Assembly (NCBI GenBank): GCA_029260935.1
Contig: JAJDCJ010000008.1
Span: 3,905 to 67,904 of the forward strand
Source: Patescibacteria group bacterium
GTDB taxonomy: Bacteria > Patescibacteriota > Minisyncoccia > Phycocordibacterales > Phycocordibacteraceae
Direction of reading: 5' to 3'
DNA length: 64,000 nucleotides
In this document: positions 10,900 to 48,377 of the stretch, in pieces
Numbering within the stretch: position 1 is the stretch's first letter
Layout of the letters: each line of letters starts with the position of its first letter
Position numbers and translations under genes: made by a program
Notes under the pieces: model-generated
Databases searched by the model: none
What the model saw: only the letters and a program-made list of their open reading frames with translations
What the model was told of the DNA's origin: nothing

Positions 10900-10925
10900 A
10901 CGGCAAGTATATCTCTCTCTTACAG

Positions 10926-10952
10926 ATCTGCGGACGTCGGACGTCCGCAGAT
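10926..10952. repeat. REP-A palindromic element (atctgcgGACGTCGGACGTCcgcagat), 5' of RAYT1
   Basis: Perfect palindrome. Confidence 0.8.
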
Positions 10953-10994
10953 GGGGATAGTAAATAATAAAGGCAGGCAGGAGAGGGAATTTCA

Positions 10995-24353: not shown

Positions 24354-25007
24354 TTAGTCAATGACAAACGATTCCTTTGCAGGATTTGTTTGTACATATT
24401 CCTTATATGCTTTGGTGTCTTTAAATTGATCCAAGAGTATAGATGTGTCTATGAGCGGGTGAAGTCGAGTGTCTCCCAGGTAGTCGCGATAGCTGGACCA
24501 TGTAAAGGAGTGTTCTTTCCCTCGAACACCTGCAATTTCTCGAGGGTTTTTATGAATGTAGGCCGAGACATGTAGCAACTGCTCATTATTTTCTATATGC
24601 ACAGCTTTAAATGGCCCCTGAAAAAGATGGCCGACATGTTTGTATTTAGTGTTGAAGTACTTAGTATAAGCATTTAAAATACGTTGCATGTAACGCGAGA
24701 TGCCCCCATCTTCCCTCTCACCTACAAGCCAATGTATGTGATTAGGCATAAGTGCAAAGGTAAGTAGTGAAATATATCTTTTTTCTGTAATGACTTTGTA
24801 CGTGTCATCAATAACATTCCAATGTTTGTTAATTCTGAACGAAGTGGCGTGGCGAGAAATATTTTTAAAATCAATTGGAGAAACAAGATGTGTCATCAAA
24901 AATAGGAAGCGGAAGCGATCACTGTCGTCATAGAAAATATCCTGTTTGTTGTTGCCGCGAACCATCAGGTGGTAGTACTCTCCTGGTGCAAAATCAATAT
25001 TCCTCAT
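24354..25007 (-). CDS. Second REP-associated tyrosine transposase (RAYT; IS200/IS605 TnpA-like). The track ORF extends to 25055 through the 5' palindrome; the likely start is the ATG at 25007.
   Basis: HuH motif 'LMPNHIHWLVGE'. 'YYHLMVRGNNKQDIF' N-terminal block. C-terminal 'YIHKNP...WSSYRDY'. Flanked by REP-B palindromes on both sides. Confidence 0.75.
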   Translation of the reverse strand: MRNIDFAPGEYYHLMVRGNNKQDIFYDDSDRFRFLFLMTHLVSPIDFKNISRHATSFRINKHWNVIDDTYKVITEKRYISLLTFALMPNHIHWLVGEREDGGISRYMQRILNAYTKYFNTKYKHVGHLFQGPFKAVHIENNEQLLHVSAYIHKNPREIAGVRGKEHSFTWSSYRDYLGDTRLHPLIDTSILLDQFKDTKAYKEYVQTNPAKESFVID

Positions 25008-25026
25008 ATGTTTAATCCTACCATCG

Positions 25027-25059
25027 TAAAGTGTGCAACACTCGGTGTTGCACACTTTA
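25027..25059. repeat. REP-B palindromic element 5' of RAYT2 (taaagtGTGCAACACTCGGTGTTGCACacttta)
   Basis: Perfect 33-nt palindrome with the same core as 24288-24312. Confidence 0.8.
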
Positions 25060-25113: not shown

Positions 25114-25860
25114 ATGGTACATTTTTCGGACATGTTGGATCAAAAGACAGACGAGAAAAAAAACGGCTTTGTGTCAGCTTTGTTTGAAGTGGGGGCGCAT
25201 TTTGGTTACTCACGCGCACGTCGCCATGCTTCAATGAAAGACGTCATTTTCGGCTCAAAAGGAAAGACCGATATTATTGACCTCAACCAGACGTCTCTCA
25301 TGCTTGAGGAGGCGTTGACATTTGTACGCGCACTTGGCGCATCTAAAAAGAAAATTCTTTTTGTTGGCGGTAAGCCTGAGATCCGCGACCTCGTGCGAGA
25401 AAATGCAGAAACACTCAATATGCACTATGTTGCCGGTCGCTGGATCGGAGGCACTCTCACTAATTTTTCTGAAATTAAAAAGCGTGTTGATCGTCACGCT
25501 GAACTTACTGTAGACCGTGAAGCAGGAACGCTGGCTAAAAAATATACAAAAAAGGAACGAGTATTACTGAACCGCGAAATTGCAAAATTAGAAACATTTT
25601 TCGGTGGGCTCTCAGGTATTGAACGTCTCCCTGATGCGCTCGTTGTCATTGATACACGCGCTGAAAATATTGCAGTGAGTGAGGCAAACAACCTCGGTAT
25701 TCCTGTAATCGGTTTACTCAACTCAGACGGTGACCGCTCACAAATATCACACCCGATAGTTGCAAACGATGCTTCCAGAAAGAGTGTGCTATTTTTCCTT
25801 ACGTCAATTGTTGGTGCATACCGCGAAGGTGCCGAAGGAGCTGTTGAGGCAACTACGTAG
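25114..25860 (+). CDS. rpsB: 30S ribosomal protein S2
   Basis: 'LFEVGAHFGYSRARRHASMKDVIFG' and 'LFVGGKPE' S2 motifs. Confidence 0.9.
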   Translation: MVHFSDMLDQKTDEKKNGFVSALFEVGAHFGYSRARRHASMKDVIFGSKGKTDIIDLNQTSLMLEEALTFVRALGASKKKILFVGGKPEIRDLVRENAETLNMHYVAGRWIGGTLTNFSEIKKRVDRHAELTVDREAGTLAKKYTKKERVLLNREIAKLETFFGGLSGIERLPDALVVIDTRAENIAVSEANNLGIPVIGLLNSDGDRSQISHPIVANDASRKSVLFFLTSIVGAYREGAEGAVEATT

Positions 25861-25874
25861 TGTAATAAAAAAAT

Positions 25875-26456
25875 ATGAGTTCAACTGATGATGTAAAACA
25901 ACTTCGTGATGCTACTGGTATTTCTGTAATGCAGTGTAAAAACGCCCTTGAAGAGGCAGGTGGTGATATTGATAAGGCGCTCCTTATCTTAAAAAAGAAG
26001 GGGAGTGCCATTGCCGAAAAGAAGTCAGGCAGGGACCTCAACGCAGGCACGGTGGCGTCTTACATTCACTCAACCAAAGAAATTGCTTCAATGGTTCTTC
26101 TGCAGTCAGAAACTGACTTTGTCTCAAAAAATGAAGAGTTCATGGGTCTTGCCTACGACATTGCTATGCATGTTGCTGCCACCAACCCTGAGTATATAAG
26201 ACGTGAAGATATTGACGAGGCAAAAATGAATGACATCAAGGGTCTTTTTGAAAAAGAAGTTGCAGATAAACCTGAAAACCTTAGAGACAAAATTCTTTCA
26301 GGTAAAGTTGATGCGTATCTAAAAAATATTGTCCTTCTTGAGCAGGATTTTATCAAAGATCCTGAAAAGAAAATTAAAGATCTTCTTGATGGAGCTGCGC
26401 AGAAGTTTGGTGAACGCGTTGAAGTTGGTCGTTTTACGCGCTTTTCGGTACGCTAG
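25875..26456 (+). CDS. tsf: Elongation factor Ts (short form)
   Basis: 'VKQLRDATGISVMQCKNALEEAGGDIDKALLILKKKG' UBA-like N-terminus. 'ASYIHSTKEIASMVLLQSETDFVSKNEEF'. Confidence 0.9.
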   Translation: MSSTDDVKQLRDATGISVMQCKNALEEAGGDIDKALLILKKKGSAIAEKKSGRDLNAGTVASYIHSTKEIASMVLLQSETDFVSKNEEFMGLAYDIAMHVAATNPEYIRREDIDEAKMNDIKGLFEKEVADKPENLRDKILSGKVDAYLKNIVLLEQDFIKDPEKKIKDLLDGAAQKFGERVEVGRFTRFSVR

Positions 26457-26459
26457 ATT

Positions 26460-26882
26460 ATGGCACTGGGTTTTATACCGTTTGTGGTGGGACTCCTAGG
26501 GCTCGTAGCATACCTCGTGTTTCGTTATATTGAAATACAAAAAGAGATACGTCTGTTTGAAAAAGAACGTACTCGTTTAGACAGTTTTTCAAACCACCTC
26601 TATCGTCTTTTTGTTTTCGGAGACATACCGGTTTCATATCGCATAGCGCTCATTGAGCGAGGAAGGAAGTTTCTTCATGGAATTATTGTAGTGCTCGTGT
26701 CGCGTGTTCGCTCACTGGAACGTATACTTTCTCGCATCAATCACCGTATGCGTGTCACCCATAAAAAAGAGACAGAACTTCGCGACCCTTCGGTTTTTCT
26801 TAAAACAATATCCGAGAGTAAAGAGAAAGAAAAAGTGGAAGGTGAAAAAGGGGATGGCAAAAACACCCCAAGTTCGGTATAG
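26460..26882 (+). CDS. Hypothetical membrane protein
   Basis: 140-aa ORF with an N-terminal TM helix. No recognised domain. Confidence 0.45.
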   Translation: MALGFIPFVVGLLGLVAYLVFRYIEIQKEIRLFEKERTRLDSFSNHLYRLFVFGDIPVSYRIALIERGRKFLHGIIVVLVSRVRSLERILSRINHRMRVTHKKETELRDPSVFLKTISESKEKEKVEGEKGDGKNTPSSV

Positions 26883-26905
26883 TCCATAGTATTCGTCCTT
26901 TGAGA

Positions 26906-26978
26906 GCCGTCTTAGCTCAGTTGGTAGAGCAACGGTTTTGTAAACCGTAGGTCCCCGGTTCAAGCCCGGGAGACGGCT
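26906..26978 (+). tRNA. tRNA-Thr (anticodon UGU); CCA not encoded
   Basis: Cloverleaf folded by hand: acceptor GCCGTCT/AGACGGC, D-arm GCTC/GAGC, anticodon stem ACGGT/ACCGT with loop TTTGTAA, T-arm CCCGG-TTCAAGC-CCGGG. Confidence 0.85.
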
Positions 26979-27003
26979 CTCACAGGAGGAAAACACCCAC
27001 TCT

Positions 27004-28578
27004 ATGAAATCTCCCACAGATATATCTTCTCAGTATCTACATATTGGACGCGCCGGAGACCTTACTGGTGGAGACCGTTTTTTATATCGATTTTTAGAAA
27101 CACTCCCTGCTTTTCTGTCAGTAGGCACGCTTGTCATTTTTATATTACTTTCGTTTATAAAACCGGCGCTCGTTGCCTACTTCACTATTGGCTTTTCTGC
27201 CTACTGGTTGTTTAAGACTGTTTTTCTTACCATCCATTTACGATATAATTTCAAACGGCTTCGGCACAACATGCACGTCAACTGGGGTGAGCGTCTTATA
27301 AATGTACGTCACAAGGAAGTGGTGCACGTGGTAGTGTTTCCTTTCTATAAAGAACCCTATGAGGTACTCCACGCCAGTGTTGAAGCACTTAAACACAGCA
27401 ACTTTAATAAAAAACAAATTGCAGTGGTGCTTGCTTCAGAAGAACGCGCAGGACAAGATGCACAAGACGTTGCTCGGCGTATTGAAAATGAATTTTCAGG
27501 TGTGTTCCTTGACATTATTACCACAGTGCACAGTGCTGACGTTGTTGGTGAAATTGCTGGCAAGGGATCCAACATTGCGTATGCTACAAAGGAGGCAACG
27601 CGTCTGATTGTAGACACGCGCTCACTCCCGTATGAAAAAGTGTTAGTCTCTGCGTTTGACTCAGACACCGTGGCGTACCCTGACTACTTTGCAAGTCTGA
27701 CGTGGCACTTCCTTACCGTTGAGGATCCACTTCATGCATCGTTTCAGCCAGTTCCGCTCTACAACAACAATATTTGGCAATCGCCGACACTTTCGCGTGT
27801 GTTGGCATACTCGTCTACGTTTTGGCAGATGATCCAACAAGAGCGCCCAGAGAGACTCTCTACGTTCTCCTCACACGCCATTCCGCTGTCAGCGCTCGTT
27901 GAGGTAGGGTACTGGCAACGCAATATGGTAAACGAAGATTCTCGTATTTTCTTTAACCTGTTTATGTACTACAACGGCAACTATAAAGTGGTGCCTATTT
28001 CGTATCCGGTTTCAATGGATGCAAACGCCACACCAACATTTCTAGGAACTGTTAAGAACCTTTACCGACAGCACCTTAGGTGGATGTATGGGAGTGCTGA
28101 AAATATTCCCTACCTTCTTTTTCACTTTATAAAAAACCCCAACATCGCACTGATGAAAAAAGTACGTATGGCGTTTGTACATATTGAGGGAGCGTGGTCG
28201 CTTGTTGTGCAGCCAATTATTCTTTTCGCTGTCGGCTGGCTCCCACTTTTAATTGGTGGTGCAGTATTTAATTCAACGGTTCTCAGTTACAATCTTCCCA
28301 TTGTTTCGTCGTGGTTTCTAACATCAGCAATGTTTGGGCTCGTATTCCTTGCTGTGTACGCAACACGCCTTGTTCCTGGAAGGCCAAAAGAGCGCGGACT
28401 GTTCGCCTCTATCCGCATGGTGTTGCAGTGGTTTTTAGTGCCCATCACCATGATTATCTTTAGTTCAATTCCTGGCATTGATGGTCAGCTACGGCTCGCG
28501 TTTAAAAAGTATTTAGGTTTTTGGGTGACACCAAAACAAAGAGAAGCGGAAACACACACTGCGCCTGCGGTACAATAA
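27004..28578 (+). CDS. Membrane-embedded processive family-2 glycosyltransferase (cellulose/chitin-synthase-like)
   Basis: Multiple TM segments. 'FDSDTVAYPDYF' DxD-like motif. 'QHLRW' (QxxRW) motif. Confidence 0.7.
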   Translation: MKSPTDISSQYLHIGRAGDLTGGDRFLYRFLETLPAFLSVGTLVIFILLSFIKPALVAYFTIGFSAYWLFKTVFLTIHLRYNFKRLRHNMHVNWGERLINVRHKEVVHVVVFPFYKEPYEVLHASVEALKHSNFNKKQIAVVLASEERAGQDAQDVARRIENEFSGVFLDIITTVHSADVVGEIAGKGSNIAYATKEATRLIVDTRSLPYEKVLVSAFDSDTVAYPDYFASLTWHFLTVEDPLHASFQPVPLYNNNIWQSPTLSRVLAYSSTFWQMIQQERPERLSTFSSHAIPLSALVEVGYWQRNMVNEDSRIFFNLFMYYNGNYKVVPISYPVSMDANATPTFLGTVKNLYRQHLRWMYGSAENIPYLLFHFIKNPNIALMKKVRMAFVHIEGAWSLVVQPIILFAVGWLPLLIGGAVFNSTVLSYNLPIVSSWFLTSAMFGLVFLAVYATRLVPGRPKERGLFASIRMVLQWFLVPITMIIFSSIPGIDGQLRLAFKKYLGFWVTPKQREAETHTAPAVQ

Positions 28579-28586
28579 TACTATCT

Positions 28587-29474
28587 ATGGAGCCACTTTC
28601 CCTTAAAACGCGCCGTGTGTATGCCACAACATTCTTCGTTTTGTTTTTAATTGTTCTTCCTATTGTTGGTTTGTATGCTTCCGGATATCGTCTCAGTGGA
28701 TTTTCTCTTGTTTCAACAGGGGGTATTTATGTCACCGTCCCCACCTCAGGAGTAACGCTGTCACTGAATGGACAGGAACTAGAGCGCTCTAATATATTTT
28801 CTAAAGCTTTTTTCTTTAACAACTTAACCCCAGGGTCATATGTGATTCAGGCAACGTCCGATGAGTATTATCCATGGTCAAAAAACCTCTTCGTAGAGTC
28901 GGGTTTTGTTTCCGATGTTCCCGTGCCCGCTATTGCTCAGCCATTAGTAGTTCGTGAGCTTGTAGTTGCAACCACCACTGCACAAATAGTACAGGCCAGT
29001 ATAGCAACATCAACCACTCGCGCAATAGAAGAGGAGAGATTTGAGAGTATTGTTGAGATATTTTTGGCAACCACCACCGCACTCGTTAAAGAAAGCGCTG
29101 TTGAAAACAATATACTCTCACTCACTCCCATTGATAAAGCGGGAGGAGTCGCGCTCTTTATTGAAGAAGGAAACCTACTGGTGAGGTGGACACGCAACTC
29201 ACCACCTCCAAGCTTTTTTTGCACCCGTCCTTCGTCATGTAGTCCTTTGTTTGCACTCGCGCGTAGTCGCAGTGAAGTGACCTCTGCTCAATTTTTTGCA
29301 GGAGGTGTGTTGTATCGCATGCTCGGCTCAGGTGTGTATTTTTCTGAAGTTGATATTCGCATACCACGACTCACTATCCCAGTGTTTACCGCCCCTGACG
29401 CCCAATTTAAAGTAATTGATAACTCGCTCATTGTACGTTCACAAGAGAAATACTACGAGATCATCGGGTTTTAA
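28587..29474 (+). CDS. Membrane-anchored hypothetical protein with a PEGA-like domain. The track ORF starts at 28521; the ATG at 28587 is likely.
   Basis: TM 'TTFFVLFLIVLPIVGLYA'. 'GVTLSLNGQELERSN...LTPGSYVIQATSDEYYPWSKNLFVESG' resembles a PEGA domain. Confidence 0.5.
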   Translation: MEPLSLKTRRVYATTFFVLFLIVLPIVGLYASGYRLSGFSLVSTGGIYVTVPTSGVTLSLNGQELERSNIFSKAFFFNNLTPGSYVIQATSDEYYPWSKNLFVESGFVSDVPVPAIAQPLVVRELVVATTTAQIVQASIATSTTRAIEEERFESIVEIFLATTTALVKESAVENNILSLTPIDKAGGVALFIEEGNLLVRWTRNSPPPSFFCTRPSSCSPLFALARSRSEVTSAQFFAGGVLYRMLGSGVYFSEVDIRIPRLTIPVFTAPDAQFKVIDNSLIVRSQEKYYEIIGF

Positions 29475-29483
29475 AAACGGAAA

Positions 29484-30620
29484 CTATCGTATTGTTCCTG
29501 AATAGACGTCCTCGGTAGTTTTTTCCAGTTTTTTGTGGAGTGCATCAACTTCCTCGTTGGTCAGTGTTTTATGTAAGTTTCTATAGGTCACACGAAAGGC
29601 ATAGCTAATCTTGTCTTCCCCGAACCGTTCATCGTTTTCATACTTATCAATAAGCGCAACTTCTTCAACAACATCATCTCCTATGACCTCTCGTGTCGTG
29701 TCAAAATAATCATTTGGAATAAAGTCTTTTTTTACGATAAAAGAAATATCGCGCACAACAGCGGGGTATTTGCTCACTTCTTCGTAGTGGTTACCGAGCA
29801 CCAACTGCTTTTTTACGCGCTCATCCTCTGACCATAGGAGACGAATATCAGGAAGATTCATACTCGCCATAGCCCCACGGTCTAAACCGGAGCCCCATGC
29901 CCAACCGTTGTAGACGTCTGAGTCAACGCCGAGCTTCTCTAGTACGGATGGCTTGACTACACCACTACCTAAAATTTCAAGCCAGTCATCGTCTTTCTTG
30001 ATTTCAATTTCAGTTGAGGGGTGCGTATAGGGAAATGTTTCTTTCACAAACCTAAACTCTACATCGCCGAAAATTGCCTTCACGATTTTTGACTCAACGT
30101 CTTTGAGCGTATCAAGGTCTATTTTTTTAATATCTTTTGGAGCAATGTAGAGCGCATCAATCTGATGAAAGACGTTCATATGCTCTCGGTCTACCTCGTC
30201 CTTACGGTATACCTTACCGTAACTAAAGACGCCCATCGCTTCTTTACGTGCAAGTTTTTCTTTGATAGCTTCCTGTTGGAAATAGTAGTACCACATAGAG
30301 GTGGTCTGTGGGCGCAAAATGTGAGTATCGTCAACGAAGTATGTATCCGATTTCTGACGGGCAGGGTGGTCTTCCTCAAAATCAAAGAAATCAAAAGCGA
30401 TTTCGGTGGATATAATTTCGGGCACATGGATGATGTCAAACGTCTTGAAATCTGGAATTGAAATAATTCGCTCAACCATGTCATACAAAGGACTCTCAGG
30501 TGTTCGCGACAGGTCAGGCATATGGAGGTAGCGTTTAATGCGGACTGCCTCAGTGTCAGTGCGCGCTTCAATTTTTTTGAGCAGTGTGTGCTCTTCTTCC
30601 AGTGGAATTCTAATATCCAT
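29484..30620 (-). CDS. pheS: Single-chain (mitochondrial-type) phenylalanine--tRNA ligase: a PheS-like class II catalytic core fused to a C-terminal FDX-ACB anticodon-binding domain. The track ORF extends to 30704.
   Basis: 'HPARQKSDTYFV...ILRPQTTSMW', motif 2 'YRKDEVDREHMNVFHQID', motif 3 'GWAWGSGLDRGAM'. C-terminal 'SKYPAVVRDISFIVKKD...YAFRVTYRN..TLTNEEVDALHKKLE' matches FDX-ACB. Confidence 0.65.
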   Translation of the reverse strand: MDIRIPLEEEHTLLKKIEARTDTEAVRIKRYLHMPDLSRTPESPLYDMVERIISIPDFKTFDIIHVPEIISTEIAFDFFDFEEDHPARQKSDTYFVDDTHILRPQTTSMWYYYFQQEAIKEKLARKEAMGVFSYGKVYRKDEVDREHMNVFHQIDALYIAPKDIKKIDLDTLKDVESKIVKAIFGDVEFRFVKETFPYTHPSTEIEIKKDDDWLEILGSGVVKPSVLEKLGVDSDVYNGWAWGSGLDRGAMASMNLPDIRLLWSEDERVKKQLVLGNHYEEVSKYPAVVRDISFIVKKDFIPNDYFDTTREVIGDDVVEEVALIDKYENDERFGEDKISYAFRVTYRNLHKTLTNEEVDALHKKLEKTTEDVYSGTIR

Positions 30621-30729
30621 ATTTTTACAGTTTAAGGAAAAACCCCCAGAAACACAAGGTGTTCTCCAATCCACCCACCCAACAATACTATCCAACCTAT
30701 CCACTTATGATCATAGTCAGTGGGAGGGA

Positions 30730-30756
30730 GAAATATGGACACGGCGTGTCCATATT
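30730..30756. repeat. REP-like palindrome, variant core (aaatatGGACACGgCGTGTCCatattt)
   Basis: Perfect 27-nt palindrome, intergenic between pheS-like and gyrB. Same ATATGGAC...GTCCATAT arm style as the REP-A copy at 22415. Confidence 0.7.
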
Positions 30757-30887
30757 TTATCAAAGGGGAAAAGTGAAGGAAAAAGAAGAAACATACCACT
30801 AAAAATTACTGAAAAACCACTGTAGAAAACAGAGATTTTTGCTCTATAGAGTGATATAATAAAGGGGCGCACAGAGCGTTATTTTTT

Positions 30888-33800
30888 ATGCCAAAGAAAA
30901 CCCCTACAAAAGCAGTAAAACCTAATAAAACAGCCACCAAAGCGAAAAAAGGCCCCTCATATGGAGCCGAACAAATTACCGTTCTTGAGGGTCTTGAGCC
31001 GGTACGTAAGCGCCCTGGAATGTACATAGGTACCACAGGTCCTGATGGTCTCCATCACCTCATTTGGGAGGTGTTTGATAACTCGCGTGACGAGGCAATG
31101 GGTGGCTTTGCCGACACTATTGAAGTGGCACTGCTTCCAGGAAATAAAATTCGCATCGTTGATAATGGGCGAGGTATTCCTGTTGATATACATAAACAAA
31201 CAAAAGTTTCAGCACTTGAAACCATCATGACCACACTGCACGCCGGCGGTAAGTTTGGTGGAGACGAGAGTGGATACAAAGTATCCGGAGGACTTCATGG
31301 TGTTGGTGTGTCGGTTGTAAATGCACTTTCAGTGTATACAAAAGTTGAAGTCCACAAAGACGGCGGTCACTACATACAGGAATACAGTCGTGGAAAACCA
31401 AAAGCAAAAGTAAAAAAAATCGGTAGCACAAACTTTGAAGGTACTGTTGTGGTGTTTGAAGCAGACCAGGAGATTTTCAAAGAGATTGTTTTTGACTGGA
31501 ATAAAATAGTTGCCCACCTACGCCAGCAGGCATACTTAGTGAAAGGCACACGTATTGGCATCTATGATGCCCGTGAATACGCTGGAAAAACTGACCTTGA
31601 AGACGGTGTCTATATAAGAGATATGGAGGTAGCAATCCCTTCGCAGACATTTTATTTTGAACAAGGGCTTCGCTCTCTTGTTGCGTTCAATAACCGTTTC
31701 CAAAAACCGATTCATAAAAATATCTTCTATGTTGAAAAAGAAGAAGATGGCGTTACCGTTGAAGTCGCACTTCAATATGCTGACGATATTTCTCCGCGTC
31801 TGATTGGTTTTGCAAACAATATCTATAACTCAGAGGGCGGAACTCATATCACTGGTTTTAAAACAGCACTCACCAGAACCATAAACACCTATGCGCGTAA
31901 AAATAACGTAGTAAAAGAAAGTGATGAAAACTTTACCGGAGACGATGTTCTTGAGGGTATTACTGCAGTTGTGTCGGTGAAAATGCCAGAGGTTCAGTTT
32001 GAGGGGCAGACCAAGGGAAAGTTGGGAAGTGTGGAGGCGCGTGGTGCAGTGGAAACCGTATTCGGCGAGGCATTTTCCGACTTTCTTGAAACACATCCTG
32101 ACGAGGCAAAATCAATTGCATCAAAAACTCTTTTGGCGCTCAAAGCACGCAAAGCAGCAAAGGCCGCTAAAGATTCAGTACTGAGAAAAGGTGCACTTGA
32201 CGGTATGACTCTGCCGGGTAAATTGGCCGACTGCCAAAGCAAAAGCGCTGAAGAGTCCGAGTTGTTTATCGTAGAGGGAGACTCAGCTGGCGGGTGTTTT
32301 GATGGGAACACTAAAGTGGCACTTACAGACGGACGCAACCTCACTTTTAAAGAACTTGTTGTAGAAGATAAAGATGGAAAACAAAATTACTGCTATACCA
32401 TTGATGATGGTGATGTTGGTGTTGCACCAATTCTCAATCCACGTATTACGAAACATAATGCTGAAGTGTTAAAAGTTACACTTGATTCAGGAGAAGAAAT
32501 AATTTGTACTCCCGATCATCGTTTTATGCTTCGTGACCAATCGTATCAACAAGCGCAACAGTTGACCTCGGAAGATTCTCTTATGCCACTTCGTCGTCAA
32601 CTTTCACGACTCGGAAGACGTATCACCATCAAAGGGTATGAATTAGTTTATACACCCGGAGCTCACCAATGGATTTTTACACATCTTCTCGGTGACCGTT
32701 TTAATATGAAACATAATATCTATACAAAAACGGACAATACCGCAGTACACCATAAAGATTTCAATAAACTCAACAATAATCCGGATAACTTGGTGCGCCT
32801 TGATAAACAAGAGCATATACTCCTTCATACACAATCATTACATCGAACACTTCACAGTGAAGCTTCAAAAGAGGCGGCGCGTCGTACACACAAGACACGG
32901 GAGTATCGAGAAAAGATTCGAACCATTATGAGTACGTCACGCATGCGTACACTACTCAGTCTGCGAGCAAAAAAACAATGGGAAAACCTGGAGTATAAAG
33001 AGTTTATGAAGCAGAAATTTTCTGAATTCTATAACACACACCCAGAATATAGGACTGAGAACAATGCAAATTTAAACGCAGCGCAGAAGTTGCATTGGTC
33101 CAAAGCGGAAAACCGCAAAGCTCAGTCAAAACGAGTAACTGAATTTTTCGTCCAAAATCCAGAGGTTCGTAGTGCGCTTTGTGCCGAAGCGCGTACACAG
33201 TGGGATAACGCTGATTTGCGAGCATGGCGCGCTGAAACCACCAAAAAACAATGGACATCAGAATTTCGTGCAAACCGAAAAGTCGCATACAATAAAACAT
33301 ATCTCACCAAAGCACTCAAAGCATTTAACGATATATGGAAAAAAACGAAGAACATCGATGTCGCCGCATACAATCGTATTCGAAAAGAGACTAATGATCG
33401 CTCACTCATTCGTCATGACACTATTTTGAAACGGTTCTTTAACAACGACACTAAGCGCTTTGAAGAAGCAGTTGTTAATTTCAATCACCGAATTAAACAT
33501 ATAGAGAAGGTACATGAGCGAATGGACGTATATGACTTGCAGGTAGCAGGTACTCACAACTTCGCACTTGCCAGTGGCATCTTTGTACACAACTCATCAA
33601 AACAGGGACGTGATCGCCGTACGCAAGCAATTTTACCGCTCCGTGGAAAGATTTTAAACGTAGAGCGTGCACGCCTTGACCGTATGCTTGCGTCAAATGA
33701 AATTAAAGCGCTTGTGGTAGCACTGGGGACTGCAATAGGGGATTTATTTAATCTAGAAAAGCTACGCTACCACAAAGTAATTATCGCGACTGACGCCGAC

Positions 33801-34298
33801 GTTGATGGTGCTCATATCCGTACGCTTCTGCTCACACTCTTTTACCGATACTTTAAAGAAATGATTGAAGGTGGATTTGTATACATTGCGCAACCTCCTC
33901 TATACAAAATTAAAAAAGGGAAAGATGTGACGTACGCGTATACTGATGATGAAAAAGCAGATCTTATCGGCACAGACATTGAAATTACAGAAGAAAACGA
34001 CGACACTGTTTTAGATGAAGATGAGGACGAAAACGATAGAGAAGAAGATGTACAGTCAAAGAAATCAAAACCGAAAACAAAAAAAGTCACGATTCAACGG
34101 TACAAAGGTCTTGGTGAAATGAACCCAGACGAGCTGTGGGAAACCACCATGGACCCAGCACGGCGGATTTTAAAACAAGTAACTATTGAGGACGCACAAG
34201 ACGCCGACCGTGTATTTGATATTTTAATGGGTACCGACGTTCCCGCTCGTAAATCGTTTATTCAAAGTAACGCCAAAACTGCAAAACTAGACATTTAG
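30888..34298 (+). CDS. gyrB: DNA gyrase subunit B, interrupted by a 433-aa intein
   Basis: GHKL ATPase N-terminus, TOPRIM 'EGDSAGG|C...' interrupted by the intein, C-terminal 'QRYKGLGEMNP'. Total 1136 aa versus about 650-700 for a typical GyrB. Confidence 0.9.
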   Translation: MPKKTPTKAVKPNKTATKAKKGPSYGAEQITVLEGLEPVRKRPGMYIGTTGPDGLHHLIWEVFDNSRDEAMGGFADTIEVALLPGNKIRIVDNGRGIPVDIHKQTKVSALETIMTTLHAGGKFGGDESGYKVSGGLHGVGVSVVNALSVYTKVEVHKDGGHYIQEYSRGKPKAKVKKIGSTNFEGTVVVFEADQEIFKEIVFDWNKIVAHLRQQAYLVKGTRIGIYDAREYAGKTDLEDGVYIRDMEVAIPSQTFYFEQGLRSLVAFNNRFQKPIHKNIFYVEKEEDGVTVEVALQYADDISPRLIGFANNIYNSEGGTHITGFKTALTRTINTYARKNNVVKESDENFTGDDVLEGITAVVSVKMPEVQFEGQTKGKLGSVEARGAVETVFGEAFSDFLETHPDEAKSIASKTLLALKARKAAKAAKDSVLRKGALDGMTLPGKLADCQSKSAEESELFIVEGDSAGGCFDGNTKVALTDGRNLTFKELVVEDKDGKQNYCYTIDDGDVGVAPILNPRITKHNAEVLKVTLDSGEEIICTPDHRFMLRDQSYQQAQQLTSEDSLMPLRRQLSRLGRRITIKGYELVYTPGAHQWIFTHLLGDRFNMKHNIYTKTDNTAVHHKDFNKLNNNPDNLVRLDKQEHILLHTQSLHRTLHSEASKEAARRTHKTREYREKIRTIMSTSRMRTLLSLRAKKQWENLEYKEFMKQKFSEFYNTHPEYRTENNANLNAAQKLHWSKAENRKAQSKRVTEFFVQNPEVRSALCAEARTQWDNADLRAWRAETTKKQWTSEFRANRKVAYNKTYLTKALKAFNDIWKKTKNIDVAAYNRIRKETNDRSLIRHDTILKRFFNNDTKRFEEAVVNFNHRIKHIEKVHERMDVYDLQVAGTHNFALASGIFVHNSSKQGRDRRTQAILPLRGKILNVERARLDRMLASNEIKALVVALGTAIGDLFNLEKLRYHKVIIATDADVDGAHIRTLLLTLFYRYFKEMIEGGFVYIAQPPLYKIKKGKDVTYAYTDDEKADLIGTDIEITEENDDTVLDEDEDENDREEDVQSKKSKPKTKKVTIQRYKGLGEMNPDELWETTMDPARRILKQVTIEDAQDADRVFDILMGTDVPARKSFIQSNAKTAKLDI
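32295..33593 (+). mobile_element. GyrB intein with an HNH-type homing endonuclease domain, inserted in the TOPRIM EGDSAGG^S site
   Basis: Block A 'CFDGNTKVAL' directly after GDSAGG. Block B 'ICTPDHRF'. HNH-like 'HHKDFNKLNNNPDNLVRLDKQEHILLH'. Blocks F/G 'VYDLQVAGTHNFALASGIFVHN' followed by +1 Ser and the resumed extein 'SKQGRDRRTQAILPLRGKILNV'. Confidence 0.85.
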
Positions 34299-37116: not shown

Positions 37117-39555
37117 ATGATACACACTAAACAAAAACTGATAGCATTTCTCATTCCTGTCCTACTCTTTTTCGGTGCGTGGATTTCTTTTGATATAGGA
37201 AATATATTTTTTGACTCACATTCCTTTGTGGCGGAGGCAGCAGGTAGTTTTGAAGATGGTACTGGTGGATTTTTTGAACGCATTGATGGCGGAGGAGGAG
37301 GCGGTGGTTTTGGTGGTGGCTGTGGTGGCTGTGGTGGCGGAGGTTTCTTTGGCGGAGGAGGAGGCGGAGGTGGAGGTGGTTTCACTCCCACAGACCCCAT
37401 CCTCCCTCTCTGTTCACTCAACCTGTACAGAAATACAATTTCGTGGACAACACACGACACCGTGAGCGTAACCATTAGTCCGCTCACTAACTCACCATCG
37501 CTTGGTGTTACATTCGCACCTAATGGCTCTCAGACATTTGTACCACCGCTTGGTGTCGGTACCCACTCATACAAATTGTTTGCATTTGGTATACAGGGGT
37601 CCGTAACTTGTCAGGAAACAATTGTGGTTCCTCCACTTCCACCACCTCCACCACCACCTCCAGTTGACGGGCCAACGTGTACATTAGATCTTTCAAAACA
37701 AAACATTGTATGGACTACCACGAATGCGGCAGGTCTTACCTTGGCACCAACCACGGCGTCACCGCTTGTGGGGAATAACCTTACCTTGAGTGGTTCAAAA
37801 GTATTTAATCCAAACCTAGGAACAGGTACCCACACCTATCGTTTGGCAGTGTTGGGACTTAACGGTGATCAGGTAACGTGTGAGGAATCACTCACCGTAC
37901 CGCCCCCACCTCCACCTAACGCACCGTTCTGTGAGTTGAGTGCCACCCCGTCTCTTGTTGATTCAGGAGATACCACAACCCTTCTATGGAATACACAAAA
38001 CGTAACATCTTTGGAGATTGACCAAGATATTGGTTTAGTAGTACCAACCAGTGGAGGGTCAAAAGTAACACCCACTATCACCACCACTACTACCTACACC
38101 GGTACTGCCCTTGCCTCAAACGGAGATACGGCAACGTGTAGTGCGACAGTTACTGTCACACCACCACCTCCGCCCTCGGGACCATCTTGTACACTTTCAG
38201 TAAATAAGGCACACATTAATCCAGGTGAGAGTATAGAAGTTTCGTGGACGTCCAGTAATGTAACGAGTGGTTTTGTTGATCATAATGTCGGTACCACATC
38301 TCCAGTTTCCTCAGGGTTCATAACTATCTTCCCATCGGACGACACAGAGTACACAGGAACATTCACTGGTCCCAATGGCGACGCTGTATGTTCTGCAACG
38401 GTTACCATTCAAAAAAGTGTCTGTACAGGAAACTGTGGCGGCGGTATCAATCCTCCAACAGTTGTATTGTTTGACACTCCTAATGAACAGCCACTTGCCT
38501 TTGTCTCACTTTCGCAAATTCCCTACACAGGTTTTGAGGCAGGAGTATTACTCACGTTTGCATTCTGGTTCGCCGTTGTGCTGTGGAGTATTGCAATGAC
38601 CTATATCTTTGTTGGGAAAACGAGCATTCGTTACTTAGCGAGTCATATACTTGGTCTTGATACACTCATCCACACGCGTTTTAACGCCCGGAGAAACACT
38701 CTGTCTTCAGACAATGGCCAGCACAAGCATCTTGAGTTAGGTTTGGAAGGATACGAAGAAAATGACGAGGCGCATGCATCAGTTGAGAGTGAGTATTTGT
38801 CCTCTGTCGCTCCAGCGCCTACTCAACCTATAGAACATATTTCTGCAGTAGACGAACTGGTTTCTAGTTTGTCTACCTCTACGGCACCAGCGCCACTACA
38901 CACTGAAGAGTCAGTAAGTAGCAGGCAAGCGCACGACGGCATCCCTGACCTTATGGACGTGCTTGAGTCTCGCGCAAACGCAGCAGGAGTACTTGTCTCA
39001 GGTGACACGTTCCATACGGTCGCAGAACTTTCAAACGAGCGTTCAGAGGTATTAAAATTGTTTGGGGATATTCTAAATGAGGCAGTTAAAACCCTTCCTC
39101 GCCAAGACGGGTGGATACACCTTTCTTTACCTACGCTAGAAACAATAGTGTCCAGTCTTACATTGTCAATAGGCACTGCGACACCAAAACCACTTACCCC
39201 ATTCACATCAAAATCTAGAATTATTACTGATTCGGCTGCAGAGAGAATTGTTCAAGCGATAGTAACCGGCAGTCGTGACGAGGCATTTTCTTTGGTAAAG
39301 CAACTTGAGGAAAGTAATGTCAGCGCAACGAAAGTGATTGCCGACATCGCAACGCTATGCGACCAACTTTACAAAGCACGAAAAGACAACACATCGCTTG
39401 AAAATGTTCTCCTTTTGGAGAAGGCAGGCGAAGTGCCTCTTGAGCGCCTCCATGCAGTTGCAGTCTTCTTCTCAGAAGCACTCAGCACTACCTATGCACT
39501 TCCATACACAGGGGTAAAGATAGCACTCGCCCAGGCGTTTGATAACCACACATAA
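37117..39555 (+). CDS. Cell-surface protein with a Gly-rich segment and four or more Ig-like Cys-containing repeats separated by poly-Pro linkers. It carries an internal IPYTG + TM + basic sorting-signal-like segment (aa 468-505), about 300 further residues, and a LPYTG near the C-terminus.
   Basis: 812 aa. Signal peptide. 'GGGGGGFGGGCGGCGGGGFFGGGGGGGGGG'. Repeats 'PPPPPP..C.L...W.T.N......G..Y.......G....C...TV'. 'IPYTGFEAGVLLTFAFWFAVVLWSIAMTYIFVGK'. It immediately follows the sortase gene. Confidence 0.65.
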   Translation: MIHTKQKLIAFLIPVLLFFGAWISFDIGNIFFDSHSFVAEAAGSFEDGTGGFFERIDGGGGGGGFGGGCGGCGGGGFFGGGGGGGGGGFTPTDPILPLCSLNLYRNTISWTTHDTVSVTISPLTNSPSLGVTFAPNGSQTFVPPLGVGTHSYKLFAFGIQGSVTCQETIVVPPLPPPPPPPPVDGPTCTLDLSKQNIVWTTTNAAGLTLAPTTASPLVGNNLTLSGSKVFNPNLGTGTHTYRLAVLGLNGDQVTCEESLTVPPPPPPNAPFCELSATPSLVDSGDTTTLLWNTQNVTSLEIDQDIGLVVPTSGGSKVTPTITTTTTYTGTALASNGDTATCSATVTVTPPPPPSGPSCTLSVNKAHINPGESIEVSWTSSNVTSGFVDHNVGTTSPVSSGFITIFPSDDTEYTGTFTGPNGDAVCSATVTIQKSVCTGNCGGGINPPTVVLFDTPNEQPLAFVSLSQIPYTGFEAGVLLTFAFWFAVVLWSIAMTYIFVGKTSIRYLASHILGLDTLIHTRFNARRNTLSSDNGQHKHLELGLEGYEENDEAHASVESEYLSSVAPAPTQPIEHISAVDELVSSLSTSTAPAPLHTEESVSSRQAHDGIPDLMDVLESRANAAGVLVSGDTFHTVAELSNERSEVLKLFGDILNEAVKTLPRQDGWIHLSLPTLETIVSSLTLSIGTATPKPLTPFTSKSRIITDSAAERIVQAIVTGSRDEAFSLVKQLEESNVSATKVIADIATLCDQLYKARKDNTSLENVLLLEKAGEVPLERLHAVAVFFSEALSTTYALPYTGVKIALAQAFDNHT

Positions 39556-47284: not shown

Positions 47285-47498
47285 CATGAGCGAGAAGCCC
47301 CCAAAGAAAGAATGGAATGTGGGGCACGCGGTTCTGGCAATTGTTTTTTATCTCTGTTTGGCAGCCACCCTTCTTTTCGGTAAAAACGACAAAACAAAAG
47401 AAAGTTAAAACACTCAGCCGAAGGGTCGGGTGTTTTTTTCTGTGGACTGCGAGGTGGCTCCCTTTATTCTTCGCGGTATACTAGGCACAGTTCTTTAT

Positions 47499-48377
47499 AT
47501 GGCATCACGACATCTTTCACGTATGAGTGCGCTTCAAGCGCTTTTCGCAGCCGATGTGTTTGGCGACCTATCGCTCAAGCACACGCTTTTAATGCTAGAG
47601 AACAACAGCTCGTCTCTTGAAAAACAAGATGAAGACACCTCATTTACCGTAGTACTCCTTAAGGGAATTATTGCAAAACGTGACGAGTTGGATGCTGTTA
47701 TAAAAAAAGCCGCACCTCAATGGCCACTTGAAAAGATCGCCACCATTGATAGAAACATTCTCCGCATCGGACTCTACGAGCTTTTATTCGGGGGCGAACT
47801 AGCAGTACCTCCAAAAGTTGCACTCAATGAATCAATTGAACTTGCCAAATCTTTCGGTGGCGACTCCAGCTCGCGTTTTGTAAACGGTGTGTTGGGTGGC
47901 GTGTATCGCGACCTCGGAAGTCCACGAAAAGACGAAGCACCCAAAAAAGAAGAAAAAGAATACTTAGCGGGAATTATGGTGTGTGCCTCTTACGGGGGCG
48001 AGCTTTATGTTGCTCTCGTTAAAGATCCATTTGATACATGGACACTCCCGAAAACTCACTATACGGAAGGTGAATTGTCAGACACAGCCGCCATGCGTGT
48101 CGCACGCGAGGAATTGGGGCTTGAAGATGTAGTACTCCAGGCGCCATTGTCAGAGCATGAATATGATGCCCATGAACCAAAAGCTGGAGTAGTAAGAAAA
48201 AAAGTCGGCTACTTCCTTGCATGCTCAAAAAAGACCCCACTCTCCAAACAAAAAGGGAAACATGTGCTTGATGCACAGTGGTTTAACGTTGATGCGTTGG
48301 ATGAAATTACCATGTATGACGACTTGCGCAATAGCGTGCAATCAGGTATTCTCGTGGCACAAAGTACGTGTATATGA
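47499..48377 (+). CDS. nusB: NusB-NUDIX fusion protein: an antitermination factor NusB domain plus a C-terminal NUDIX hydrolase domain. The track ORF starts at 47430; the ATG at 47499 gives MASRHLSRMSALQALF.
   Basis: NusB 'RNILRIGLYELLFG...PKVALNESIELAKSFGGDSSSRFVNGVLGGVYRD'. Nudix box 'GELSDTAAMRVAREELGLE'. Confidence 0.7.
   Translation: MASRHLSRMSALQALFAADVFGDLSLKHTLLMLENNSSSLEKQDEDTSFTVVLLKGIIAKRDELDAVIKKAAPQWPLEKIATIDRNILRIGLYELLFGGELAVPPKVALNESIELAKSFGGDSSSRFVNGVLGGVYRDLGSPRKDEAPKKEEKEYLAGIMVCASYGGELYVALVKDPFDTWTLPKTHYTEGELSDTAAMRVAREELGLEDVVLQAPLSEHEYDAHEPKAGVVRKKVGYFLACSKKTPLSKQKGKHVLDAQWFNVDALDEITMYDDLRNSVQSGILVAQSTCI

What the first reader, a model, noticed from the sequence alone, without database searches (positions are those of the whole stretch)
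29484..30620. Single-chain, mitochondrial-type PheRS (PheS core + FDX-ACB domain) with no pheT in the neighbourhood
The roughly 378-aa protein has PheS class II motifs 1-3 and a short N-terminus without the long bacterial coiled-coil arm. It ends in a domain of about 95 aa matching the ferredoxin-fold anticodon-binding domain (SKYPAVVRDISF...YAFRVTYRN...LTNEEVDAL). That domain is normally at the C-terminus of PheT or of monomeric mitochondrial PheRS. A standalone alpha-like chain carrying its own anticodon-binding domain implies a monomeric PheRS, which is unusual for bacteria.
Basis: partly seen in the sequence, partly recalled or inferred. Interest (0 to 1): 0.6.

Follow-up and report, generated by a model that had tools for sequence, protein, structure and literature searches.

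The report
Mitochondrial-type single-chain PheRS in Parcubacteria
This gene encodes a one-chain phenylalanyl-tRNA synthetase of the kind known from mitochondria, and in a large group of ultra-small bacteria it sits where the usual two-gene enzyme (pheS-pheT) sits in their relatives, which bears on where the mitochondrial enzyme came from.

Summary
Window 29484-30620 (minus strand) encodes a 378-aa protein with a PheS-type class II core (PF01409, E 7e-52) and a C-terminal FDX-ACB anticodon-binding domain (PF03147, E 1e-19). Its closest solved relative is human mitochondrial PheRS. The Phe pocket, motif 2/3 arginines and all four residues that read anticodon base G34 in the human enzyme are invariant across the family. 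It is not the NCBIfam 'mystery ligase' SrmL, whose pocket and G34 readers differ. Relatives occur in at least 578 matches in the one-genome-per-species collection, all 80 inspected being Paceibacterota/Parcubacteria.

The main new result is positional. Published gene tables of two Paceibacteria with canonical PheRS give tsf-tRNA-Thr(tgt)-pheS-pheT and pheS-pheT-gyrB-secE-nusG-rplK. Genomes with the single-chain gene have tsf-tRNA-Thr(tgt)-...-[this gene]-gyrB-secE-nusG-rplK. No pheS or pheT was found in the window or in the 93 related loci screened.

It is therefore most likely the housekeeping PheRS that displaced pheST. Two things remain untested: absence of pheST from a whole genome, and the monomeric state. 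I found no paper describing this. It is a new member of a known kind, with real evolutionary interest.

The parts
29484..30620 (-). Complete gene for the single-chain PheRS (378 aa; stop codon at 29484-29486)
   Evidence: ORF list. Pfam PF01409 + PF03147. Identical protein P0001 in public assemblies. AF2 model with pLDDT 93.
30498..30620 (-). N-terminal ~41 residues: short two-helix hairpin (helices 8-19 and 23-33) with the family motif R-x-D-x-E-A-x-R-x-K-R-Y-L-x-M-P-D-L-S-R. It is absent from mitochondrial PheRS and far shorter than the bacterial PheS coiled-coil arm.
   Evidence: Secondary structure of the model. Family alignment. No PF02912 hit. The reading as a vestigial arm is inference.
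29805..30497 (-). Class II PheS-type catalytic module (residues 42-272). It carries motif 2 (GKVYRKDEVD...FHQID; R139), the Phe pocket (F196-P-Y198-T199-H-P-S202, G218/G220, A241) and motif 3 (G243, G245, R248), followed by the PheS tail LPDIRLLWSEDERVKKQL.
   Evidence: Pfam. Invariant columns. Comparison by group. Residue roles from PMC3275996.
29487..29774 (-). FDX-ACB (B8-type) anticodon-binding domain, residues 283-378. The predicted G34 readers are D325, Y327, S339 and R378.
   Evidence: Pfam. Alignment to human mt PheRS. Roles of Asp364/Phe366/Ser375/Arg414 from PMC7540514. Invariance in the family.
30621..30887 (.). Divergent intergenic region between this gene and gyrB. It holds a unique 13-bp perfect inverted repeat (30731-30743 / 30745-30757), a possible operator or hairpin. 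No convincing sigma-70-like promoter was found.
30888..34298 (+). gyrB (intein-containing, 1136 aa). It is the conserved neighbour that marks the ancestral pheS-pheT slot.
   Evidence: ORF and gene list. gyrB is adjacent in 70 of the 80 GTDB loci. pheS-pheT-gyrB order in PMX.50.
25114..26979 (+). rpsB (25114-25860), tsf (25875-26456), a 140-aa ORF (26460-26882) and tRNA-Thr(TGT) (26906-26979). This is the conserved block on the other side of the slot.
   Evidence: tsf-hyp-tRNA-Thr(tgt)-hyp-pheS-pheT order in PMX_810_sub.
27004..29474 (+). Two genes lying between tRNA-Thr and the synthetase gene in this lineage: a family 2 glycosyltransferase (27004-28578) and a PEGA-like ORF (28521-29474). They are not part of the enzyme and are present in only about 10 of the 86 loci.

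Best explanation
The gene encodes the organism's housekeeping phenylalanyl-tRNA synthetase in the single-chain 'PheRS-M' form known from mitochondria. The PheS-type class II core binds Phe and ATP, makes Phe-AMP and transfers Phe to tRNA-Phe. The C-terminal FDX-ACB domain, joined directly to the PheS C-terminal tail, reads anticodon base G34 through Asp/Tyr/Ser/Arg and swings between closed and open positions on tRNA binding. There is no B3/B4 editing domain, so Tyr-tRNA-Phe cannot be proofread in cis. In a large subclade of Paceibacteria (Parcubacteria) this one gene has displaced the pheS-pheT operon at its ancestral position between tsf-tRNA-Thr(tgt) and gyrB-secE-nusG-rplK.

Shown here: the architecture, the fold, residue conservation, the distribution and the positional equivalence.

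Inferred: catalytic activity, the monomeric state, and that it is the only PheRS in the cell.
For: Architecture and fold:
- PF01409 + PF03147 on one chain.
- The best PDB sequence matches are human mt PheRS (E 5e-55), against about 1e-30 for bacterial PheS.
- The AF2 model has pLDDT 93. Its best Foldseek matches are human mt PheRS, and it superposes best on the tRNA-bound open state 3TUP (TM 0.71, rmsd 5.1).

Residues (19 family sequences):
- Motif 2 R139 and motif 3 R248 are invariant.
- Phe-pocket residues F196, T199 and A241 are invariant, and Y198 is Tyr in 18 of 19 (= Tt Phe258/Phe260, human Thr235, E. coli Ala294; PMC3275996).
- The four G34 readers D325, Y327, S339 and R378 are invariant (= human Asp364, Phe366, Ser375, Arg414; PMC7540514; mapping).

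Conservation and distribution:
- The family is 63-74% identical over 120 listed members.
- There are at least 578 matches in one-genome-per-species GTDB contigs, all 80 inspected being Paceibacterota.

Slot equivalence:
- Canonical genomes give tsf-hyp-tRNA-Thr(tgt)-hyp-pheS-pheT (PMX_810_sub) and pheS-pheT-gyrB-secE-nusG-rplK-dcd-tmk (PMX.50).
- Carriers of the single-chain gene give rpsB-tsf-tRNA-Thr(tgt)-...-gene-gyrB-secE-nusG-rplK-tmk.
- PMX_810_sub, which has pheST, has only one PF01409 and one PF03147 hit in its 866-gene table, so it carries no single-chain copy.
Against: - Absence of pheS/pheT was shown only for the 64-kb window and for +/-10 kb around homologues, never for a whole genome.
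- The protein scores below every curated NCBIfam cutoff: pheS_mito 210 against 258, SrmL 236 against 300, pheS 159 against 237.
- Oligomeric state and activity are untested.
- The window's copy departs from the family's >=90% consensus at 8 of 177 positions, including W249G and E247D next to the motif 3 arginine.
- No clear promoter or Shine-Dalgarno sequence was found upstream.
- A sequence-related family, SrmL, exists in bacteria with unknown function, so architecture alone does not prove PheRS function.
Confidence: 0.78

Rival explanations
1. It is an accessory PheS-like paralogue with another substrate or role, like the NCBIfam 'PheS-related mystery ligase' SrmL or a stress or backup PheRS. 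On this reading it coexists with a canonical pheS-pheT encoded elsewhere in the genome.
For: Its best NCBIfam hit by score is SrmL (236 bits). SrmL has the same two-domain layout. Canonical pheST does exist in some Paceibacteria. Whole-genome absence was not tested.
Against: The score is below the SrmL cutoff of 300. The five true SrmL representatives have a different pocket (His for F196, Glu for G218, Gly for S202), no aromatic at the G34-stacking position and Asn for S339, whereas this family keeps the PheRS states. An SrmL representative sits beside radical-SAM and Asn-synthase-like genes, while this gene sits among rpsB, tsf, gyrB, secE, nusG and rplK. It occupies the pheST slot itself. 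The canonical genome PMX_810_sub lacks it. A duplicate synthetase is unlikely in genomes of about 0.7 Mb.
Confidence: 0.1
2. It is the catalytic PheRS but not a true monomer. It would work as a homodimer or need a separately encoded tRNA-binding helper, such as a free PheT-B2/Trbp111-like OB-fold protein.
For: Class II synthetases are normally dimers. A PF01588 tRNA_bind ORF most similar to the PheT B2 domain lies immediately upstream of the gene in two lineages, L054 and L073. The family keeps an extra N-terminal helical hairpin that mitochondrial PheRS lacks.
Against: The tRNA_bind neighbour is present in only 2 of 86 loci and not in this window. The human homologue with the same layout is fully active as a monomer (PMC3275996). 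The model superposes on the monomeric tRNA-bound state.
Confidence: 0.1
3. It is a recent transfer of a eukaryotic nuclear gene for mitochondrial PheRS, or eukaryotic contamination, rather than a resident bacterial gene.
For: The closest characterised proteins are eukaryotic mitochondrial PheRS.
Against: The gene lies in a conserved bacterial synteny block in more than 80 genomes. In an NJ tree the family (100% bootstrap) groups with other bacterial sequences (code-25 CPR, an Oligoflexia MAG, SrmL) and is not nested among mitochondrial-type sequences. The alternative grouping with that clade appears in 7.5% of replicates. It has no presequence and carries its own N-terminal hairpin.
Confidence: 0.02

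Closest known systems
Mitochondrial phenylalanyl-tRNA synthetase (human FARS2; PDB 3CMQ, 3TUP; TIGR00469 pheS_mito; 'PheRS-M' in AARS Online)
   Same: The layout is the same: a PheS catalytic module including its C-terminal tail, fused through a short linker to a B8/FDX-ACB domain. There are no beta-subunit domains and no editing domain. The pocket is the same (FP[FY]THPS, with Thr at human position 235), as are the G34 readers (Asp, aromatic, Ser, C-terminal Arg). Both share Trp at positions 240 and 263, where canonical PheS has Phe/Leu. These are the best sequence and structure matches.
   Different: Identity is about 30%, and the TIGR00469 score of 210 is below the 258 cutoff. This protein lacks the roughly 30-residue insertion and the presequence of the human protein, and it has an extra N-terminal two-helix hairpin with a conserved PDLSR motif. 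It is bacterial, chromosomal and syntenic with housekeeping genes. It forms its own clade.
SrmL, 'PheS-related mystery ligase' (NCBIfam NF051887)
   Same: It is bacterial, has the same two-domain layout and similar length, and is the top-scoring NCBIfam model for the query. It groups with the bacterial branch of the tree at 66% bootstrap.
   Different: The query scores below the family cutoff (236 against 300). SrmL representatives have His at 196, Glu at 218, Gly at 202, Tyr at 92, Arg at 263, no aromatic at 327 and Asn at 339, so neither the Phe pocket nor G34 reading is kept. One SrmL locus has a non-housekeeping context of radical SAM, NUDIX-like and Asn-synthase-like genes.
Canonical bacterial (alpha-beta)2 PheRS, PheS + PheT (TIGR00468 / TIGR00472; e.g. 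E. coli 3PCO, T. thermophilus 1PYS)
   Same: The catalytic chemistry and pocket are the same. The core is 31-35% identical to PheS, and the ACB domain is homologous to PheT B8. In related Paceibacteria this enzyme occupies the same chromosomal slot.
   Different: This is one chain instead of two. It has no long coiled-coil arm (no PF02912 hit) and no B1-B7 domains, so it lacks the editing site and the four-helix-bundle interface. Its scores are far below both cutoffs.
PheRS-M-like genes of huge phages
   Same: A 348-aa homologue with the same two domains passes the TIGR00469 cutoff at 308 bits. It lies on a 340-kb phage-like scaffold. A full-length match also exists in the 634,780-bp GenBank record LR745206.1, 'uncultured phage'.
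   Different: It is only about 34% identical to the query, lacks the N-terminal hairpin, and falls with the mitochondrial-type sequences in the tree. It is an auxiliary viral gene, not a resident housekeeping gene.

Membership tests
Mitochondrial-type single-chain PheRS (PheRS-M / TIGR00469) | PheS-type class II catalytic core with motif 2 and motif 3 arginines and the aromatic Phe pocket | tested here: met
   PF01409 at E 7e-52. R139, R248, F196, T199 and A241 are invariant in the family and Y198 is Tyr in 18 of 19. Residue roles from PMC3275996.
Mitochondrial-type single-chain PheRS (PheRS-M / TIGR00469) | FDX-ACB (B8) anticodon-binding domain at the C-terminus of the same chain | tested here: met
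   PF03147 over residues 283-378, E 1.1e-19, 71 bits against a cutoff of 31.
Mitochondrial-type single-chain PheRS (PheRS-M / TIGR00469) | G34 recognition set (human Asp364, Phe366, Ser375, Arg414) | tested here: met
   D325, Y327, S339 and R378 align to these residues. They are invariant in 38 and in 19 family sequences. Roles from PMC7540514.
Mitochondrial-type single-chain PheRS (PheRS-M / TIGR00469) | Three-dimensional similarity to solved mt PheRS, including a mobile ACB domain | tested here: met
   The top seven Foldseek PDB matches are human mt PheRS (E about 1e-35). TM is 0.71 to the open state 3TUP and 0.57 to the closed state 3CMQ.
Mitochondrial-type single-chain PheRS (PheRS-M / TIGR00469) | Score at or above the curated TIGR00469 cutoff (258.35 bits) | tested here: not met
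   The query scores 210.3 bits. The sister representative P0121, 55% identical, passes with 264.3 bits.
Mitochondrial-type single-chain PheRS (PheRS-M / TIGR00469) | Works without a beta subunit: no pheT in the genome | tested here: inconclusive
   No pheT or pheS was found in the window or in the 93 related loci screened, and the gene occupies the pheST slot. No whole genome could be scanned.
Mitochondrial-type single-chain PheRS (PheRS-M / TIGR00469) | Monomeric and active in tRNA-Phe aminoacylation | not testable with these tools
   This needs protein biochemistry.
SrmL (NF051887) | Score at or above the curated cutoff (300 bits) | tested here: not met
   The query scores 236.2 bits. True members P0195, P0226, P0255 and P0249 score 376-447 bits.
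SrmL (NF051887) | SrmL-type active-site and ACB signature, as seen in five representatives: H196, G202, E218, Y92, R263, N339, no aromatic at 327 | tested here: not met
   The query and its family have F196, S202, G218, D92, W263, S339 and Y327. The signature was derived here from five sequences and is not a published definition.
Canonical bacterial PheS alpha subunit (TIGR00468) | Score at or above the cutoff (237.45 bits) and an N-terminal coiled-coil arm (PF02912) | tested here: not met
   The query scores 158.6 bits. There is no PF02912 hit at E <= 0.1.
Canonical bacterial PheS alpha subunit (TIGR00468) | Partner pheT gene, usually adjacent | tested here: not met
   None is present in the window or beside any of the 93 homologous loci.

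The most novel reading that the evidence does not exclude
The single-chain PheRS arose once, in bacteria, by an in-frame deletion inside a pheS-pheT operon that joined the PheS tail to the B8 domain. The Paceibacteria gene still sits, in the same orientation, exactly where pheS-pheT lies upstream of gyrB. Mitochondria, and huge phages, would then have acquired their PheRS from such a CPR-like lineage, rather than eukaryotes inventing it. Supporting points are the shared derived residues W240 and W263 and the same fusion junction in both forms, and the family is not nested inside the mitochondrial-type clade. The alternative is that a foreign PheRS-M gene displaced pheST in situ. This is not excluded, because the core is only about 35% identical to any canonical PheS representative.
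Probability: 0.2. Interest if true: 0.85.

Novelty: new member of a known kind. Interest (0 to 1): 0.62.

Why it matters
[quoted passage not shown] Here a large bacterial radiation, with at least 578 matches in a one-genome-per-species collection, appears to run on the single-chain form, installed in the pheS-pheT slot.
- **Origin of mitochondrial PheRS.** The question now has a concrete bacterial comparison set and can be tested by phylogeny.
- **Translation fidelity.** These cells would translate Phe codons without cis-editing of Tyr-tRNA-Phe.
- **Marker genes.** pheS and pheT are standard single-copy markers for bacterial phylogeny and MAG completeness (my own knowledge). If these lineages lack them, such markers would be systematically missing or mis-scored there.
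- **Annotation.** NCBI records name family members 'hypothetical protein'.
- **Engineering.** It offers a compact bacterial PheRS.

Tried and rejected
1. **Whole-genome test for pheT.** No tool gives more than +/-10 kb around a hit. The single genome-contig scan went to mapping the family. Walking the 681-687 kb contigs would have needed about 35 look-ups.
2. **Sequences of canonical Paceibacteria PheS/PheT**, needed to separate in-situ fusion from xenologous displacement.
   - I searched GyrB and L11 homologues and looked up five of their loci. All five carried the single-chain gene.
   - A gyrB scan of IMG/VR found no Paceibacteria contigs, the best hit being 51% identical.
   - The one canonical PheS among the top 150 representatives (P0263) came from a non-CPR Gram-negative.
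3. **Relics of pheT around the gene.** The small ORFs between the gene and gyrB show no similarity to PheS or PheT.
4. **Free tRNA_bind (PheT-B2-like) ORF as a regular partner.** It is present in only 2 of 86 loci.
5. **Literature.** Ten full-text searches found no paper on a bacterial monomeric PheRS or on SrmL. Supplement searches of three other CPR papers gave nothing useful.
6. **tRNA-Thr(tgt) as a DNA anchor** for a metagenome scan. Rejected because the sequence is generic.
7. **Foldseek against AFDB50.** The library was unavailable. The BFVD viral library gave only distant class II synthetases.
8. **Promoter and terminator scan.** It found nothing above chance.
Full report
**1. The observation**

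An ORF on the minus strand runs from ATG at 30620 to a stop at 29484-29486 and encodes 378 aa. A GTG 28 codons upstream would add an N-terminal extension. However, 120 homologues of 375-401 aa begin at the same MDI/MEI position, so the ATG is the start.

Pfam finds tRNA-synt_2d over residues 42-272 (E 7e-52) and FDX-ACB over residues 283-378 (E 1.1e-19). It finds no Phe_tRNA-synt_N coiled-coil domain.

None of the large ORFs of the window is a PheT. tblastn with E. coli PheT and PheS (locus L006) finds nothing else in the window. The rest of the window is housekeeping: dnaE, rpoB, smc, thrS-like, rnc, trmD, rpsB, tsf, prfA, and gyrB with an intein. Named homologues are from Candidatus Kaiserbacteria and Parcubacteria. 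[quoted passage not shown]

**2. What the protein is**

*Sequence and structure.*
- Against PDB sequences the best matches are human mitochondrial PheRS (E 5e-55). Bacterial PheS chains score about 1e-30, and PheT chains match only the last ~100 residues.
- An AlphaFold2 model built on 38 family sequences has mean pLDDT 93 and pTM 0.83.
- Foldseek against the PDB puts seven human mt PheRS entries first (E about 1e-35). The best superposition is on the tRNA-bound open state 3TUP (TM 0.71, rmsd 5.1 A), against TM 0.57 for the closed state.

*NCBIfam places it between families and below every cutoff.*

| Model | Score (bits) | Cutoff (bits) |
|---|---|---|
| SrmL, 'PheS-related mystery ligase' (NF051887) | 236 | 300 |
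| pheS_mito (TIGR00469) | 210 | 258 |
| pheS (TIGR00468) | 159 | 237 |

*Residue-level comparison settles which of these it works like.*
- In the family, the motif 2 arginine (R139) and motif 3 arginine (R248) are invariant, and so are the pocket residues F196, T199, S202, G218, G220 and A241. The pocket residue Y198 is Tyr in 18 of 19.
[quoted passage not shown] T199 corresponds to Thr235 of the human mitochondrial enzyme (PMC3275996).
- In human mt PheRS, anticodon base G34 is read by Asp364, Phe366 (Tyr-beta-731 in T. thermophilus), Ser375 and Arg414. Asp364Gly abolishes activity (PMC7540514).
- Using the alignment, these map to D325, Y327, S339 and the C-terminal R378. All four are invariant in the family.

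*SrmL is different.* The five true SrmL representatives (376-447 bits) have His at 196, Gly at 202, Glu at 218, no aromatic at 327 and Asn at 339. One of them lies beside radical-SAM, NUDIX-like and Asn-synthase-like genes. The window protein is therefore PheRS-like in both substrate sites, and SrmL is not.

*The window's own copy.* It departs from the family's >=90% consensus at 8 of 177 positions, mostly conservatively. The less conservative changes are W249G, V108S and G42E.

**3. Distribution**
- The family is tight: 63-74% identity among the 120 best hits, all with PF01409 + PF03147.
Of these, 578 encode a relative.
- The best 80 are all Paceibacterota/Parcubacteria MAGs: Kaiser-, Zambryski-, Nomura-, Yanofsky-, Colwell- and Doudnabacteria, Spechtbacterales and Minisyncoccia.
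- An exhaustive phmmer search of 1.84 billion cluster representatives found 161 representatives at E <= 1e-30. They include:
  - a deeper sister (P0121, 55% identical), which passes the pheS_mito cutoff;
  - AT-rich sequences from a lineage that reads TGA as Gly at invariant glycine positions, that is, genetic code 25 (my reading), which points to CPR Gracilibacteria/Absconditabacteria;
  - one Oligoflexia MAG protein;
  - SrmL;
  - many mitochondrial-type sequences;
  - a group of about 350-aa proteins, one of which lies on a 340-kb phage-like scaffold.

**4. The positional argument**

This is the main new result.

*Local synteny of the single-chain gene.*
- Across the 80 GTDB loci, gyrB is the immediate neighbour in 70. 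It is co-directional and downstream in 35, and divergent (as in the window) in 35.
- tsf lies within 6 kb on the other side in 35 of the 80, flanked by rpsB and tRNA-Thr(tgt) in the counts over all 86 loci.

*Published gene tables show what occupies this position when the enzyme is canonical.*
[quoted passage not shown] - In Ca. Microsyncoccus PMX.50 the order is pheS - pheT - gyrB - secE - nusG - rplK - dcd - tmk (PMC9763046 supplement 2).

*Loci carrying the single-chain gene read as follows.*
- Gene - (small ORF) - gyrB - secE - nusG - rplK - (dcd) - tmk: Yanofskybacteria GCA_001794195.1 and four further loci.
- rpsB - tsf - tRNA-Thr(tgt) - ... - gene - gyrB.

The single gene therefore lies in the slot of the two-gene operon, and in half of the genomes in the same orientation. 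The window shows the inverted variant, with two extra genes (a glycosyltransferase and a PEGA-like ORF) between tRNA-Thr and the synthetase.

*Co-occurrence.*
- PMX_810_sub, whose full 866-gene table is held, has exactly one PF01409 and one PF03147 hit. The canonical genome therefore lacks the single-chain gene.

I take this as strong but indirect evidence that the single-chain enzyme replaced pheST rather than joining it. The direct test, a scan of a whole genome, could not be run.

**5. Mechanism**

*Shown:*
- a PheS catalytic module including its own C-terminal tail (LPDIRLLWSxDERVKKQL);
- a linker of about 6 residues;
- a B8-type domain starting Y-x-E-V-S-K-Y-P-x-x-x-R-D-I-S-F;
- a predicted open arrangement resembling the tRNA-bound human enzyme.

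*Inferred:*
- Phe activation and transfer as in other class II PheRS.
- tRNA-Phe selection mainly through G34.
- A hinge motion of the ACB domain.
- No editing, because B3/B4 is absent, so fidelity rests on the synthetic site.
- A monomeric state, by analogy with the human enzyme. This is unproven.

The N-terminal 41 residues form a short two-helix hairpin with a family-specific motif. It is absent from mitochondrial PheRS. It may be a vestige of the PheS arm, which is also inference.

**6. Evolution**

An NJ tree on 355 columns, rooted on two canonical PheS sequences, gives these bootstrap values (200 replicates):

| Grouping | Support |
|---|---|
| Parcubacteria family + P0121 | 100% |
| ... 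plus the code-25 sequences | 72% |
| ... plus the Oligoflexia protein | 73% |
| ... plus SrmL | 66% |
| Family grouping with the mitochondrial/phage-type clade instead | 7.5% |

This method is crude and the tree is only indicative.
- For a single origin of the fused form: both forms have Trp at positions 240 and 263, where canonical PheS has Phe/Leu, and both share the same fusion junction.
- The slot and orientation are what an in-frame deletion within pheS-pheT would produce.
- Against a recent in-situ fusion: no canonical PheS representative scores above 129 bits, or about 35% identity, with the query. The alternatives are rapid divergence after fusion, or displacement in situ by an incoming gene.
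- I could not obtain canonical Paceibacteria PheS/PheT sequences to decide between these.

**7. Novelty**

Ten full-text searches found no description of a bacterial monomeric PheRS. The review literature calls the monomer unique to mitochondria, and AARS Online lists PheRS-M only with FARS2.

Database curators have evidently seen relatives. TIGR00469 catches some, NF051887 names a neighbouring family, and JGI labels members 'PheS alpha chain' while NCBI labels them 'hypothetical protein'.

The mechanism is that of a known enzyme kind, so I file it as a new member of a known kind. Its interest lies in its scale, in the exact replacement of pheST, and in what it may say about the origin of mitochondrial PheRS.

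Noticed in passing
window 30888-34298 (+): gyrB carries an intein: 1136 aa against about 700 aa in relatives, and PF14890 Intein_splicing appears in the public gene call. Several related Paceibacteria GyrB proteins (1128-1163 aa) also have PF14890, while others lack it.
   Followed up: partly
window 30731-30757: A perfect 13-bp inverted repeat, AAATATGGACACG / CGTGTCCATATTT, with 1 nt between the arms. It lies in the divergent intergenic region between the synthetase gene and gyrB and is unique in the window. It may be an operator or a hairpin.
   Followed up: partly
L054 9532-9987 and L073 9505-9927: A free-standing tRNA_bind (PF01588) ORF, most similar to the B2 domain of PheT, lies immediately upstream of the single-chain PheRS gene in two lineages only. 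One of them is a Doudnabacteria MAG.
   Followed up: yes
L087 10001-11047 (ENA ERZ19027398 scaffold_19, 340,874 bp): A 348-aa PheRS-M homologue that passes the TIGR00469 cutoff sits on a phage-like scaffold with PHROG helicase, PhageMetallopep and PcfJ hits and mostly unknown small ORFs. A full-length match also exists in the unannotated GenBank huge-phage record LR745206.1, 634,780 bp.
   Followed up: partly
L091 9463-10833: The closest outgroup of the family (P0128, 456 aa) has 13 in-frame TGA codons. Two fall at invariant glycine positions of motif 3, so I read TGA as Gly, that is, genetic code 25. The locus is 32% GC and lies next to an F-type ATP synthase operon. The database translation with Trp at these positions is wrong.
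   Followed up: partly
L177 9001-10149: A true SrmL 'mystery ligase' (387 bits) is divergently placed next to a radical-SAM enzyme, a NUDIX-like protein and an Asn-synthase/QueC-like ATP-pyrophosphatase. This suggests a small-molecule or RNA-modification pathway rather than translation.
   Followed up: no
window 10216-10995 (-) and 24354-25055 (-): Two ORFs of 259 and 233 aa carry an IS200-like Y1 transposase domain in their C-terminal part. One sits between prfA and rpsB.
   Followed up: no
window 47430-48377 (+); L004 17564-20464: There are unusual domain fusions in translation and transcription genes. The window has NusB fused to a NUDIX domain. A relative has a LeuRS with a NUDIX hit inside it.
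   Followed up: no
window 93-3401 (+), 3822-7157 (+), 37117-39555 (+): These are very large ORFs with little annotation. The first is 1102 aa with an endosialidase-chaperone (Peptidase_S74) domain and an Ig-like domain, which resembles a tail fibre or surface protein. The second is 1111 aa with only an N-terminal HTH_17. The third is 812 aa with no significant Pfam hit.
   Followed up: no
L002 20885-21134 (ENA NILS19-1 scaffold_1): An alternative-oxidase (PF01786 AOX) gene is called on a 687-kb Parcubacteria scaffold next to the FAD-linked oxidase gene. This is unexpected for a fermentative CPR genome.
   Followed up: no
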